A DNA stretch of 64,000 bases from an uncultured Planctomycetaceae bacterium (GTDB taxonomy: Bacteria; Planctomycetota; Planctomycetia; Planctomycetales; Planctomycetaceae): assembly GCA_963815195.1 (NCBI GenBank), contig CAWFGE010000015.1:704001-768000 (forward strand), read 5' to 3'. Shown in pieces: positions 48,713-52,217 of this stretch. A program made the position numbers and the translations under genes. Position 1 is the first letter of the stretch. Every line of letters begins with the position of its first letter. The notes under the pieces were generated by a model that saw nothing but the letters and a program-made list of their open reading frames with translations, made no database searches and had not been told where the DNA came from.

Positions 48713-48872
48713 CACGATTTTGATCGAATTCAAAACCTTGGCGCTGCAACGGTTGCTTGCCAAGCGACGGCAGAGCTGTGGGCTTTGGAAGATCGACGCC
48801 CGATCAGAACCTCCCATCGCTTCGCAACCCAGGTTGACAAGCAACCTGGGCCACCCTGCACCAAAAGAATTT

Positions 48873-49067
48873 AGGGCCGAAGGCCCGGCCCTATGTCAGC
48901 CCGGGGCAAGCGCAGCGCCGCCCTGGGTTACGAATGATGAATGAAACACAAGCCCCAACGGGGCGGCCCTATGTGGCAACCTTCTCCGGTTGAGGACCGC
49001 CCGGTTGAGGACCGCCCCGTTGGGGCTTTTGCACTTTGTTAGTTCCCGTTCCCCAGGGCTGCGCCCT
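48873..49067. repeat. REP-like palindrome, left part (interrupted by IS110)
   Basis: AGGGCCGAAGGCCCGGCCCTATGTCAGCCC is the inverted partner of 50728-50757. Internal AAGCCCCAACGGGGCGG / CCGCCCCGTTGGGGCTT. Confidence 0.85.
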
Positions 49068-49081
49068 TATAGGATTTGCTG

Positions 49082-49378
49082 AGGGATGGATCGGCCGCGG
49101 GAGAGGGCGGGGGGACGCAAGTCTCTCCCCACGGACTCTTCCGCGCCGGAGCCGATCCAGCGCCGTTTTTTTCCTGTTTTTCCAGCCCCAACTTTGAGAG
49201 GATCAAAATCAGGCACGCGTCGCCCCGCTACGAATCGTGCGCCCCATCGCTTCAACGATTGAGCCCAGACTTTCGAGCGGGACGATGCTCTTGGGAACCA
49301 ACGAATCACTCCAGATGATGACGCCAAAACGTCTCGGACTATAAGGTTTTCGCCCGCTCCCAAGATCGCGTGCCCTTT
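49082..49378 (+). ncRNA. IS110 bridge RNA (5' stem-loop, target-binding loop, donor-binding loop)
   Basis: Target guides TGCGCCC (49238-44) and AGCCCAG (49262-68). Donor guides CAGATG (49312-17) and CTATAAG (49339-45). Each pair flanks a small hairpin within closing stems. RNA ends are approximate. Confidence 0.85.
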
Positions 49379-49414
49379 TTGATTGTGTTTCACTTTAACA
49401 GGAGACGATCCCCC

Positions 49415-50699
49415 ATGCACTCGAATTTGCTCGACCCCAATGCCTGTGTGCTGATCGGCCTCGATTGGGCCGACCGCGAACATGCCGTCTGCCGGCTGCT
49501 TCCCGACGGCGGAACCGAACACCGGCAACTCGAACACACGCCCGAAGCGATTGCCGACTGGCTCGCCGGCCTGCGGAAGCAATTCCCCGGTCGCCCGATT
49601 CGGATCGCGTTGGAGCAAAGCCGCGGCGCGCTGATGAACGCGCTCCGCCGTTTCGCCGACCTGGAACTCGAACTGTATCCCATCAATCCCAAGCAGCTGG
49701 CCCGCTATCGGGACGCGATTCATCCTTCGGGAGCGAAATCCGATCCAGACGATGCGCAGCTCTTGGCCCGCTTTCTGCAAAACCATCAGGAGCAACTCCT
49801 CCCGTTCGTGGCGGACGATCCCGAAACCCGCCGCCTGGCCGAGTTGTCCGAACTTCGCCGCAAGCTGGTCGATGACCGCAAAACCCTTGTGCAGAAGCTC
49901 GAAGGCACGCTCAAGCTGTATTTTCCGCAACTGCTCGAATGGTGTGCCGGCAAGAGTCGCCAACCCCTGTTGCTCGCCGTGCTTCGCCGCTGGCCGAGCT
50001 TGGGCGATCTTAAGCGGGCTCATCCCAAAACGCTGCGCACGTTCCTCGCCGAGCATGGCCTGCGGAACCCCGACCAGCAAACCGAGTGGATCGACAACGT
50101 CCGCCCCGCCACCCCGTTGACCGAGGATGCCAGTTTGATCGAACCCCGCGCGATGTACGCCCAAAGTCTCGGCCGGCAAATCGAGGAACTGAACGAGGCC
50201 ATTGCCAAATTCGAGAAGCAACTGGACGAGGCGACCACCGCGCATCCCGACCACGAACTGTTCCGCTCGCTGCCCGGTGCCGGCGACGTCCTCACGCCGC
50301 GACTCATCGTGGCGATGGGCTCCGACCGGGACCGCTACCAAGACGCCGGGGACGTGCAATCCAAAAGCGGCATCGCCCCGATCACCAAGCAAAGCGGGAA
50401 GACCCGGCTCGTGTTGTCGCGAATCGCCTGCCCCAAATTTCTCCGGCAGACATTCCACGAGTTCGCCGACCAGGCCCGCCGCTGGAGCGATTGGTCCCGA
50501 GCGTTCTATCAAATGAAACGCGCAGGCCGGCATGAGCCACCACGCCGCGGTCCGCGCCTTGGCCTTCAAATGGATTCGCATCATCTTTCGGATGTGGCAA
50601 ACCGGCACCCCTTACTCGGAAATGAAGTACCAGGAACAACTCACAATCAGAAACAGCCCCGTCTGGAATTTATTGGAAACAACAACAGAAACCACCTGA
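49415..50699 (+). CDS. IS110 family transposase/recombinase (apparent indel ~50525)
   Basis: RBS AGGAGA, DEDD residues (GLDW, ALEQ, KSDPDDA), SLPGAG and APITKQSGK (catalytic Ser region). Corrected C-terminus HHAAVRALAFKWIRIIFRMW. Confidence 0.92.
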
Positions 50700-50727
50700 A
50701 ACCCACTTGAAAAAACCTCAGATGTCT

Positions 50728-50757
50728 GGGCTGACATAGCGCCGGACCTTCGGTCCT
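50728..50757. repeat. REP-like palindrome, right part
   Basis: GGGCTGACATAGCGCCGGACCTTCGGTCCT is complementary to 48873-48902. Confidence 0.85.
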
Positions 50758-50790
50758 TTTTCCGTAATTTGGAACGACTGAAATTCCAAG

Positions 50791-50813
50791 ACCGCTTACT
50801 TCGTGCGCGGCTC
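50791..50813 (-). repeat. Repeat family B solo copy
   Basis: ACCGCTTACTTCGTGCGCGGCTC. Confidence 0.75.
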
Positions 50814-50938
50814 AGTCGCTTTTTGTCATGTCCGGGTTTTCAAGAAACCGGGCGGGGTGGCTGGGGTCGGTTTGTCGAAAGGTGCGTGGCTTCAAGAATA
50901 CGCTGGATCGACAAACTGCCCCCAGTCGTGCCGCTTCT

Positions 50939-52217
50939 TCAACCGTTCCCCATCCGTTCCCGCACCAACGCCAGGGCTTCCTCGTGTGTGTGGATTTCGC
51001 CGTTGAGTTGGGCGTCGCGGACGGTTTCCAGAAGGTCTTTGAACTCGGGGCCCGGCTCGAGGCCCAGGTCGATCAAGTCCTTGCCGGTGATGAGCGGCGG
51101 GGGGTTCAGTTCCTCGGGCGGGGTGTTTCGAAGGTATTCTTCGCAGAAGATCACCGGCCCCAGATCGAGGTCTTTGGTGATGCGCTCGACCCGCATGAGC
51201 TTCAAGAGGTCCACGGTCAACCGCTGGGCCAGGAGCCTCTTGAGTCGGCAGAGCGGAAGCTGCGGCGCATCGTCCAACGCCCGCTGATGATCCAACAGCC
51301 AGGCGATATCGTCGGTTTCCTGATTGGACAGCCGCCAACGCTGGCCCAGTTCGGCGGCGGTTTCCGCGAACTTGACTTGATTCGGCAGCGCATGCCAGAG
51401 CACGGCGGCCGCGAGTTCAAAACTCGGGGCCTGAAGGAGATGCAACATGTGCAGCGTCCGCTGCCATTCCTCCGCGGGAGCTTCGTCCGCCGATTTGGGC
51501 AAGATGGGCCTTAGTTCCGGGAGGATGATCTCCAAGAGGCCCGCCTGCTGGGTCAACTGCATGCCCCGGGCGCGGTGCTCGTTGGTGAGCATCTTTCGCA
51601 GGCTCTTGCGTGATCCGCTCGGCACTCACGACGGTGAGTTGATCCGCCATCTCGCGGACGGCCGACGCGGTGATGGGGTCCAGTTCGAAATCGAGATTGG
51701 CGGCGAAGCGGACGGCCCGGAGCATTCGCAGCTTGTCTTCGCGGACGCGGTCGTGCGGATCGCCGATGGCGCGGACGATGCCCGCCCCCAGGTCGCGCTC
51801 GCCGCCGACGTAATCGAGCACCTGCTGAGCCAGGGGATCGAAGAACATGCCGTTGATGGTGAAGTCCCGCCGTTTGGCGTCTTCCTCGGGGGTGGCGAAG
51901 GTGACGGACTCGGGCCGCCGGCCGTCGAGGTACGGACCTTCGGTGCGGAAGGTGGCGACTTCCACATCCGCCACGCCCCGCGGACCGCGGACGACGATTA
52001 CCCCGAAGCTCGCTCCGACGGCGAGAGTCCGGCGGTGGCCGAAGATTTGACGGACTTCCTCGGGCCGGGCGTCGGTGGCGACGTCATAATCCTTGGGGAC
52101 CCGGCCCAAGAGATAGTCCCGCACGCACCCGCCCGCCCACAGCGCCTGATGTCCCGCCTGCTTCAGGCGGCTCACCACTTCGCCGGCAAACTCGCGATTG
52201 CGGTCGGTTGGGGGCAT
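50939..52217 (-). CDS. CCA tRNA nucleotidyltransferase / poly(A) polymerase family (apparent indel ~51601)
   Basis: GGCVRD..LG..PKDYDVAT, EVATFR, RRDFTING, EDKLRMLRAVRF, SAERI and ITGKDL. Confidence 0.92.

What the first reader, a model, noticed from the sequence alone, without database searches (positions are those of the whole stretch)
49082..49378. Fully readable IS110 bridge RNA with guides matching its own target and donor
Seen: the reconstructed target is GGCTGCGCC-CT-GGGCTG and the reconstructed circular donor is CAGATGT-CT-TATAGG. Target loop: TGCGCCC (49238-44, identical to left target plus core C), hairpin ATCG-cttcaa-CGAT, then AGCCCAG (49262-68, reverse complement of CTGGGCT), closed by CCCGCT.CGAA/TTCGAGCGGG. 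Donor loop: CAGATG (49312-17, left donor), hairpin GACG-ccaaaa-CGTC, then CTATAAG (49339-45, reverse complement of CTTATAG), closed by TCTTGGGA/TCCCAAGA. An outer stem GGCACGCG/CGCGTGCC and a large 5' stem-loop (~49085-49163) complete the fold. Known: IS110 elements such as IS621 use a bispecific bridge RNA with this loop topology. Inference: the mechanism is described, but this looks like a divergent ortholog with 7-nt right guides and is a candidate programmable recombinase.
Basis: partly seen in the sequence, partly recalled or inferred. Interest (0 to 1): 0.85.

Follow-up and report, generated by a model that had tools for sequence, protein, structure and literature searches.

The report
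Genuine IS110 bridge RNA, known kind
The stretch in front of this jumping gene's recombinase very probably encodes the folded guide ("bridge") RNA that reads both the insertion site and the element's own ends, a mechanism described in 2024, so it is a well-supported but ordinary new member of a known family.

Summary
Observation confirmed.

The element (window 49066-50727, CT core at both ends) is an IS110-group insertion sequence:
- It has DEDD and Transposase_20 domains.
- Its left end is 349 nt and its right end 28 nt.
- The genome holds five near-identical copies, all in the same 13-nt site of a REP-like repeat.

Evidence that the left end encodes a bridge RNA:
- A covariance model of window 49205-49382 found the same fold just upstream of the recombinase gene in 31 of 36 related loci that have upstream DNA.
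- 96.8% of cells are paired and 34 of 41 pairs change on both sides.
- Donor guides are nearly invariant. Target guides vary and match each element's own flanks: 5.09 of 6 positions on the left and 4.58 of 5 on the right, against about 2 and 1.6 for mismatched pairings, with 0 of 10,000 permutations as good.
- Handshake guides behave as published for IS621.

Seven-nucleotide right guides lie within the published range. The window copy's recombinase is frameshifted; two copies elsewhere are intact. No transcript data could be found.

Verdict: new member of a known kind. The scan had already noted planctomycete IS110 bridge RNAs on other DNA.

The parts
49060..49065 (+). Left target half-site TGCGCC, the six bases 5' of the core, read by the left target guide
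   Evidence: The same left flank is found at all 5 copies.
49066..49067 (+). Left copy of the CT core dinucleotide
   Evidence: CT is present at both junctions of all 5 copies.
49068..49073 (+). Left-end terminus TATAGG: the right donor half-site, and the -10-like half of a promoter that would form only across the RE-LE junction of a circle
   Evidence: All 15 elements with a mapped left end begin TATAG, or TACAG in L010, and a TTGACA-like hexamer lies 15-17 nt before it in the right end of all 18 elements listed. That this is a promoter is inferred.
49087..49159 (+). Long 5' stem-loop of the left end
   Evidence: fold. One search found a long hairpin at the same place, with diverged sequence, in the left ends of most of the 22 homologs folded.
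49212..49374 (+). Bridge RNA core: outer stem (49212-49218 / 49368-49374) enclosing the target-binding arm (49219-49286) and the donor-binding arm (49289-49365)
   Evidence: 31 homologs match the model, 96.8% of cells are paired, and 34 of 41 pairs change on both sides.
49238..49244 (+). Left target guide TGCGCCC, identical to the target top strand 49060-49066
   Evidence: Covaries with the left flank in homologs (5.09 of 6, n=23).
49262..49268 (+). Right target guide AGCCCAG, complementary to CT+GGGCT at 50726-50732
   Evidence: Covaries with the right flank (4.58 of 5, n=24; 20 of 24 match 7 of 7).
49269..49270 (+). Target-loop handshake guide AC, complementary to donor positions 7 and 6 (T, G) and not to the target's own CC
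   Evidence: Definition; 22 of 24 and 20 of 24 pair with the donor; 1 of 24 pairs with the cognate target.
49312..49317 (+). Left donor guide CAGATG, identical to the right-end terminus 50719-50724
   Evidence: Nearly invariant in 32 aligned RNAs.
49339..49345 (+). Right donor guide CTATAAG, complementary to CT+TATAG at 49066-49072
   Evidence: Nearly invariant in homologs.
49346..49347 (+). Donor-loop handshake guide GU. The G is complementary to target position 7 (C at 49065).
   Evidence: 22 of 24 elements pair here, with covariation (G:C 16, C:G 4, A:T 2).
49375..49382 (+). U-rich tract (CTTTTTGA) right after the outer stem; possible 3' end of the RNA
   Evidence: Inferred only; the terminator scan did not call it.
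49415..50699 (+). IS110 recombinase gene, broken in this copy by one extra base near 50524. The intact form is 427 aa (P0001).
   Evidence: AGGAG lies at 49400-49404. D17, E67, D110, D113 and S327 are conserved.
50707..50712 (+). TTGAAA in the right end: -35-like half of the putative junction promoter
   Evidence: a TTGACA-like hexamer at a fixed distance from the right terminus in 18 of 18 elements listed. Function is inferred.
50719..50725 (+). Right-end terminus CAGATGT (left donor half-site)
50726..50727 (+). Right copy of the CT core
50728..50732 (+). Right target half-site GGGCT

Best explanation
Window 49066-50727 is one of five copies of an IS110-group insertion sequence. Its 349-nt left end encodes a bridge RNA. 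The RNA consists of a long 5' hairpin and then a stem that encloses two arms, each arm carrying an internal loop.

The first loop reads the insertion site. Its 5' side, UGCGCCC, has the sequence of the target top strand and so pairs with the bottom strand left of the CT core. Its 3' side, AGCCCAG, pairs with the top strand CT-GGGCT. The second loop reads the joined ends of the excised circle in the same way (CAGAUG and CUAUAAG). Two bases 3' of each right guide (AC and GU) are handshake guides that pair with the other DNA after top-strand exchange.

A DEDD/Ser recombinase tetramer would hold the RNA, cut next to CT and exchange strands. This places the element into a 13-nt site (TGCGCC-CT-GGGCT) in the 3' arm of a REP-like hairpin.

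Shown here: sequence anatomy, fold conservation, guide-flank and handshake covariation, catalytic residues, and site choice in the genome. Inferred: that the RNA is made, probably from a promoter rebuilt across the RE-LE junction; its ends; and catalysis. The window copy has an intact RNA gene but a frameshifted recombinase, so it would depend on the two intact copies.
For: - Family: Pfam DEDD_Tnp_IS110 at 2.8e-25 and Transposase_20 at 7.1e-14. IS621 and ISCro4 are the only PDB matches, with D17, E67, D110, D113 and S327 aligned to their catalytic D, E, D, D and S (residue numbers).
- Fold: z -3.7 against shuffles.
- Model hits: model R1 hit 31 of 50 related loci. That is 31 of the 36 with the gene start and upstream DNA, all on the gene's strand just upstream, with E from 8e-31 to 7e-6.
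- Pairing: 96.8% of cells paired against 31-40% when partners are slid. 34 of 41 pairs change on both sides, and 0 of 500 shuffles are as good.
- Independent alignment: a MAFFT/RNAalifold run on 12 sequences recovers the outer stem, the target arm and the inner donor stem, with 17 of 30 pairs compensatory.
- Left guide: junctions were located by the conserved donor words. The left target guide then matches its own left flank at 5.09 of 6 non-core positions, against 1.96 for mismatched pairings (n=23, 21 distinct guides).
- Right guide: it matches its own right flank at 4.58 of 5, against 1.62 (n=24, 17 distinct guides). For both guides 0 of 10,000 permutations are as good.
- Handshake guides: the first base pairs with position 7 of the non-cognate DNA in 22 of 24 elements for each loop, and with the cognate DNA in only 1 and 2 of 24. 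This is the rule set out for IS621.
- Site choice: all 5 copies lie in the exact 13-nt site and in one orientation. Only 1 exact site in the repeat family is empty, and all 15 one-mismatch repeat copies are empty.
Against: - No transcript evidence: no RNA run was listed, so expression, RNA ends and strand are unknown.
- The strict sigma-70 scan found no promoter in 48950-49450. In this copy the putative junction promoter has a 15-nt spacer and a weak -10 (TATAGG).
- A T-run after the 5' hairpin (49166-49185) could stop transcripts before the loops.
- No Rfam family matched: 10 matches at E up to 10, none near its gathering score.
- 5 of 36 related loci with upstream DNA gave no model hit (L041, L044, L055, L056, L057).
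- Some homologs match their flanks poorly (left: L014 1 of 7, L025 4 of 7; right: L020 3 of 7, L023 4 of 7).
- The alignment used for one search was fitted to the model's structure, and related elements are not independent.
- The copy in the sister genome G001 has the same guides but sits in a non-matching site.
Confidence: 0.93

Rival explanations
1. The RNA is real but shorter. It would run only over the enclosed three-way junction (about 49212-49380, roughly 170 nt), made from a promoter in 49165-49211. The long 5' hairpin plus T-run (49087-49185) would be a separate terminator or insulator that blocks read-through from outside or from the junction promoter.
For: - The hairpin is followed by GCGCCG and T7..T5.
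- The outer stem begins at 49212 and closes at 49374, directly before a U-tract. That gives a self-contained unit close in size to the 177-nt IS621 RNA.
- The stretch 49173-49187 is the most variable part of the left end between this element and its 94.7%-identical relative in G001.
Against: - The long 5' hairpin is kept in most of the 22 homolog left ends folded, but the T-run is not.
- IS621's RNA also starts with a 5' stem-loop and is made from a junction promoter.
- The -35-like and -10-like halves across the junction are conserved in all 18 elements listed.
- No sigma-70-like site was called in 48950-49450.
Confidence: 0.2
2. The structured left end is only a leader of the recombinase mRNA (attenuator, translation control or antisense target). 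The matches to target and donor would be by-products of the ends being recombinase binding sites.
For: The structure lies directly upstream of the ribosome-binding site (AGGAG at 49400-49404) and start codon. Small RNAs that modulate recombinase expression were earlier proposed for ISPpu9, as mentioned in Durrant 2024 (passage).
Against: - Target-loop guides differ between homologs and follow each element's own flanking host DNA on both sides. A leader function does not predict this.
- Handshake positions covary with the non-cognate DNA.
- The same architecture has been shown biochemically and structurally to guide recombination in IS621.
Confidence: 0.03
3. The family is a fossil in this genome. 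The RNA gene is intact by recent descent only, and the element no longer moves.
For: - 3 of 5 copies carry frameshifts or a 301-nt deletion.
- One perfect target site is still empty.
- No RE-LE circle junction is present in the assembly (0 matches).
Against: - Two copies encode the full 427-aa protein with all catalytic residues.
- The copies are 99-100% identical.
- 5 of 6 perfect sites are filled.
- An assembly would not be expected to show a rare circle.
Confidence: 0.2

Closest known systems
IS621 of Escherichia coli: bridge recombinase and 177-nt bridge RNA (Durrant et al. 2024, PMC11208160, passages read; Hiraizumi et al. 2024, PMC11208158, passages read; PDB 8wt6-8wt9)
   Same: - Recombinase with a DEDD RuvC-like domain plus a Tnp domain with catalytic Ser.
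- CT core.
- Long left end encoding the RNA.
- 5' stem-loop followed by a variable target loop and a conserved donor loop.
- 5' sides of the loops read the bottom strand and 3' sides read the top strand.
- Two-base handshake guides; the donor-loop one is GU in both.
- Target lies in a REP-like repeat.
- -35 and -10 halves split across the RE-LE junction.
   Different: - The protein is 427 aa against 326, and only distantly alike (phmmer E 1.4e-7).
- The left end is 349 nt against 191.
- The 5' hairpin spans about 73 nt.
- The two arms are enclosed by an outer stem, giving a three-way junction. The IS621 text does not describe this; I could not see its figures.
- Guide lengths differ: the left target guide reads 6 bases plus 1 core base (IS621 has nine bases), the right target guide reads 2 core bases plus 5 (IS621 has four bases), and the left donor guide reads 6 bases without the core.
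ISCro4 / IS622 bridge recombinase (PDB 9t56; Perry et al. preprint 10.1101/2025.05.14.653916, search listing only)
   Same: Best PDB sequence match (E 1.3e-9), with the same catalytic residues aligned.
   Different: Distant in sequence. Its RNA was not compared here.
ISPpu9 / ISPpu10 of Pseudomonas putida, IS110 elements that insert into REP sequences (PMC12288879 and 10.64898/2026.03.19.712850; abstracts in the listing only)
   Same: IS110-family elements whose copies all lie in copies of one repeated extragenic palindrome.
   Different: Different host phylum. No sequence comparison was made here. The 'sequence-structure dual-match' idea for hairpin targets was not tested on this element.
seekRNA of IS1111-group and IS110-group elements
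   Same: The same principle under another name: an element-encoded RNA with short segments that spell out target and ends.
   Different: IS1111-group elements carry the RNA in the right end and have longer subterminal inverted repeats (Durrant 2024, passage). This element has the IS110-group layout.

Membership tests
IS110 family, IS110 group (bridge recombinase with bridge RNA) | N-terminal DEDD RuvC-like domain with the four acidic residues | tested here: met
   PF01548 at 2.8e-25 over residues 14-171. D17, E67, D110 and D113 align with the D, E, D, D of IS621 and ISCro4, though these N-terminal stretches are weak on their own (i-E 0.26 and 490).
IS110 family, IS110 group (bridge recombinase with bridge RNA) | C-terminal Tnp domain with the catalytic serine followed by glycine | tested here: met
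   PF02371 at 7.1e-14 over residues 281-366. S327-G328 (KQSGK) aligns with the ESG of IS621 and ISCro4. In the window copy the frame breaks after codon 371.
IS110 family, IS110 group (bridge recombinase with bridge RNA) | Left non-coding end much longer than the right; no long terminal or subterminal inverted repeats; a core dinucleotide at both junctions | tested here: met
   The left end is 49066-49414 (349 nt) and the right end 50700-50727 (28 nt), with CT at both junctions of 5 of 5 copies.
IS110 family, IS110 group (bridge recombinase with bridge RNA) | [quoted passage not shown] | tested here: met
   The extra enclosing stem is an addition, not a failure.
IS110 family, IS110 group (bridge recombinase with bridge RNA) | First loop matches the target and second loop matches the donor, with 5' sides reading the bottom strand and 3' sides the top strand | tested here: met
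   (7, 7, 6 and 7 nt). The chance estimate is 1.4e-7.
IS110 family, IS110 group (bridge recombinase with bridge RNA) | Target guides covary with target DNA across orthologues; the donor loop is more conserved | tested here: met
   (0 of 10,000 permutations for each side).
IS110 family, IS110 group (bridge recombinase with bridge RNA) | Handshake guides pair with positions 6-7 of the non-cognate DNA and not with the cognate DNA | tested here: met
   22 of 24 for each loop at position 7, against cognate pairing in 1 of 24 and 2 of 24. The second donor-loop handshake base pairs in only 8 of 24.
IS110 family, IS110 group (bridge recombinase with bridge RNA) | Promoter rebuilt across the RE-LE junction of the circular form | tested here: inconclusive
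   A conserved TTGACA-like hexamer lies 15-17 nt before TATAG in 18 of 18 elements listed. In this element the spacer is 15 nt and the -10 is weak, and host promoter rules are unknown.
IS110 family, IS110 group (bridge recombinase with bridge RNA) | The RNA is made and binds the recombinase; recombination depends on it and can be reprogrammed | not testable with these tools
   No RNA run was listed.
Rfam families (release 15) | Match at or above a family's gathering score | tested here: not met
   10 matches at E up to 10 in 48800-51000, all far below their gathering scores. No bridge RNA family appeared among them.

The most novel reading that the evidence does not exclude
This element and its 31 relatives could form a structurally distinct branch of bridge systems. 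Their shared features would be a roughly 300-nt RNA with a very long 5' hairpin, a closed three-way junction enclosing both binding arms, identical CGAA/UUCG clamps on both loops, and a recombinase about 100 residues longer than IS621. That build may give unusually strict site choice: here all 5 insertions are in the exact 13-nt site and none in the 15 one-mismatch repeat copies. By my own arithmetic the chance is 6/20349, about 3e-4, if the 21 sites were equally usable.
Probability: 0.2. Interest if true: 0.45.

Novelty: new member of a known kind. Interest (0 to 1): 0.3.

Why it matters
It adds a cleanly readable, internally consistent natural example of bridge RNA guidance from a planctomycete lineage. 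RNA, target, donor, handshake bases, filled sites and an empty site can all be read from one genome.

A set of 31 relatives comes with it, and their guides and flanks can serve as a small test set for bridge RNA rules. As a candidate programmable recombinase it is one of thousands. Its practical value would depend on activity and fidelity, which only experiments can show.

It does not change the understanding of the mechanism.

Tried and rejected
- RNA evidence: the look-up of sequencing runs listed no RNA holder.
- Rfam scan: only chance-level matches (RAGATH-31, mir-645 and others).
- Sigma-70 and terminator scan of 48950-49450: no promoter. The single terminator-like site is on the minus strand and within chance expectation.
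- Covariation within the genome: impossible, because the RNA region is identical in all 5 copies.
- Other paralogous IS110 elements or bridge RNAs in the genome: none beyond the 5 copies.
It was replaced by an analytic estimate.
- Earlier notes: nothing near this place and no look-alike of the protein.
- Literature: a full-text search for 'bridge RNA' with 'Planctomycet' found 0 papers. However, Durrant's Supplementary Table 1 lists 31 occurrences of 'Planctomyc' and a protein of the same subfamily. Supplementary file 2 could not be read, and file 3 was cut when stored.
- Leader or attenuator reading: considered and rejected (see rivals).
- An IS1111-type layout: considered and rejected, because the RNA lies in the left end and the right end is only 28 nt.

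Full report
**Observation**

- Left junction: TGCGCC|CT|TATAGG (49060-49073).
- Right junction: CAGATGT|CT|GGGCTG (50719-50733).
- Inside the left end: TGCGCCC (49238-49244) and AGCCCAG (49262-49268) flank the hairpin ATCG-cttcaa-CGAT.
- Also inside the left end: CAGATG (49312-49317) and CTATAAG (49339-49345) flank the hairpin GACG-ccaaaa-CGTC.

The minimum-free-energy fold of 49066-49415 gives the long 5' hairpin (49087-49159), the outer stem GGCACGC/GCGTGCC and both arms. Its energy is -132.1 kcal/mol against -113.7 +/- 5.0 for shuffles (z -3.7). None of the 100 shuffles folds as well.

Under a first-order model of the left end itself, the four guide words are expected together about 1.4e-7 times. 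One detail needs correcting. Both internal loops are closed by the same inner CGAA/UUCG stem, and TCTTGGGA/TCCCAAGA is the base of the donor arm.

**What the element is**

The reading frame 49415 onward matches Pfam DEDD_Tnp_IS110 (2.8e-25) and Transposase_20 (7.1e-14). The only solved structures matched are ISCro4 (1.3e-9) and IS621 (1.4e-7). D17, E67, D110, D113 and S327 align to their catalytic residues (residue numbers).

The left end is 349 nt and the right end 28 nt, which is the IS110-group layout described by Durrant et al. (passage).

The genome holds five copies:
- The window copy has one extra base near 50524 that breaks the frame after codon 371.
- The copies on contigs C13 (about 491 kb) and C18 are intact and encode 427 aa (P0001).
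- The C19 copy has small deletions and substitutions.
- The second C13 copy has a 301-nt deletion.

The RNA region is identical in all five copies.

**Target**

All five copies lie in the same orientation in the same site...CCCAGGGCTGCGCC|CT|GGGCTGACAT.... The site sits in the 3' arm of a small palindrome (CCCAGGGC-TGC-GCCCTGGG) at the head of a REP-like repeat.

The right half of that repeat occurs 90 times at up to 4 substitutions. Among those 90:
- 5 carry the element.
- 1 is an empty exact 13-nt site.
- 15 differ from the 13-nt site at one position, and all 15 are empty.
- The rest differ more.

**Conservation of the fold**

A protein-based scan found 50 related loci at 31-61% identity, mostly planctomycete, acidobacterial and gemmatimonadote assemblies.

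I built a covariance model from window 49205-49382 with the structure I derived. It hit 31 loci with E from 8e-31 to 7e-6, always on the gene's strand just upstream of the recombinase gene. That is 31 of the 36 loci that hold the gene start and upstream DNA. L041, L044, L055, L056 and L057 gave nothing.

On the model-fitted alignment:
- 96.8% of cells are standard pairs, against 31-40% when partners are slid by one to three columns.
- 34 of 41 pairs change on both sides.
- No shuffle out of 500 reaches the observed values.

That alignment leans towards the model. I therefore also ran MAFFT plus RNAalifold on 12 sequences. It recovered the outer stem, the whole target arm and the inner donor stem, with 17 of 30 pairs compensatory. 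A long 5' hairpin at the same place, with diverged sequence, appears in the left ends of most of the 22 homologs folded.

**Guides follow flanks**

The donor guides are nearly invariant across the 32 aligned RNAs (CAGATG and CTATAAG). Each element's ends could therefore be located by its donor words alone, independently of the target loop.

This gave a unique left junction in 23 of 32 rows and a unique right junction in 24 of 32. The remaining rows were dropped because the word was absent or the contig ended.

| Guide | Match to own flank | Mismatched pairings | Rows | Distinct guides | Perfect 7 of 7 |
|---|---|---|---|---|---|
| Left target guide | 5.09 of 6 non-core positions | 1.96 | 23 | 21 | 12 of 23 |
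| Right target guide | 4.58 of 5 non-core positions | 1.62 | 24 | 17 | 20 of 24 |

No permutation out of 10,000 was as good for either side. Poor fits exist: L014 and L011 look shifted by one register, and L020 and L023 fit badly on the right. Related elements are not independent.

**Handshake guides**

Hiraizumi et al. define these as the two bases 3' of each right guide. They pair with positions 6-7 of the other DNA after strand exchange and must not pair with the cognate DNA (passages).

In this element:
- The target loop has AC, complementary to donor T7 and G6 and not to the target's C7 and C6.
- The donor loop has GU, the same as IS621, and its G is complementary to target C7.

Across the relatives:
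- The first handshake base pairs with the non-cognate position 7 in 22 of 24 elements for each loop.
- In the donor loop this comes with covariation (G:C 16, C:G 4, A:T 2).
- Cognate pairing occurs in only 1 and 2 of 24.
- The second donor-loop handshake base pairs in only 8 of 24.

**Expression**

Expression is not shown. No RNA run was listed. The strict sigma-70 scan found nothing in 48950-49450.

The right ends of all 18 elements listed carry a TTGACA-like hexamer 15-17 nt before the left-end TATAG. This would form a promoter only in the circle, as reported for IS621 (passage). In this element the promoter would be TTGAAA-15 nt-TATAGG, which is weak on paper.

A T-run follows the 5' hairpin in this element and in its G001 relative, but not in most homologs. 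Whether the RNA starts before the hairpin (about 300 nt) or at the outer stem (about 170 nt) is open.

**Comparison with what is known**

This is the IS621-type mechanism in every respect I could test. Differences are of degree:
- a larger and very distant recombinase;
- a longer left end;
- a much longer 5' hairpin;
- an outer stem that encloses both arms;
- guide lengths of 6+1, 2+5, 6 and 2+5.

The published range for the 3' sides is four to seven nucleotides, and longer right target guides than IS621's are mentioned.

Durrant's Supplementary Table 1 already lists planctomycete IS110 proteins and a protein of this subfamily. A full-text search for 'bridge RNA' with 'Planctomycet' found no paper. 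This scan has noted planctomycete IS110 bridge RNAs in other genomes before, but none with a look-alike protein.

**Distribution**

The model hit 3 of 60 related genomes searched: G001 in the same genus, and G020 and G027 in the same family. It hit 0 of 24 genomes in other families. This fits a sporadically spread mobile element.

**Verdict**

This is a new member of a known kind, of modest interest.

Noticed in passing
L072 (G001, same genus); element about 160-1818 on the minus strand of the locus: The single copy in the sister genome is 94.7% identical and has the same four guides. Its flanks are ...GCGCAAGC|CT and CT|TATGGTC..., which do not fit the target loop. The right flank resembles the element's own right donor half (TATGG against TATAG). 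The same genome has two empty perfect target sites (L075, L076). This could be a natural donor-like, half-matched off-target insertion of the kind described in preprint 10.64898/2026.08.31.748434 (abstract read).
   Followed up: partly
window 48877-48930 (minus strand) and 48948-49065 with 50726-50780; genome-wide: The target belongs to a repeat module with about 90 copies of the end GGGCTGACATAGGGCCGGACCTTCGG. The module has two head types: a short hairpin CCCAGGGC-TGC-GCCCTGGG and a longer CCCAGGGCGGCGCTGCGCTTGCCCTGGG. These often occur as inverted pairs about 200 bp apart, with a conserved inner part (CCCCGTTGGGGCTTTTGCATTTTGTTCGTTCCCGTT). It looks like a MITE- or BIME-like module. The mir-645 and Acido-Lenti-1 chance matches fall on it.
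   Followed up: partly
L014, L017, L022, L029, L031, L033, L036, L045: A clade of relatives, mostly from Vicinamibacterales and other Acidobacteriota assemblies, has CC instead of CT at both junctions. All of its guides changed accordingly: the right donor guide is CTATAGG and the right target guide ends in GG.
   Followed up: partly
window 49166-49185: A T-rich run (T7 CC TG T5) lies 7 nt after the long 5' hairpin and looks terminator-like. It is kept in the G001 relative but not in most homologs, so its role is unclear.
   Followed up: partly
L007 (G000 contig C15, 246467-246544): An isolated 78-nt stretch is 77% identical to the right end of the element (query 1583-1662). It is possibly a remnant or a related repeat.
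   Followed up: no
window 49231-49234/49272-49275 and 49302-49305/49349-49352: Both binding loops are clamped by the same four pairs, CGAA/UUCG (CGGA/UCCG in many relatives). The third pair changes in step in both arms of the same RNA in most relatives, which hints at a shared protein contact or an origin by duplication.
   Followed up: no
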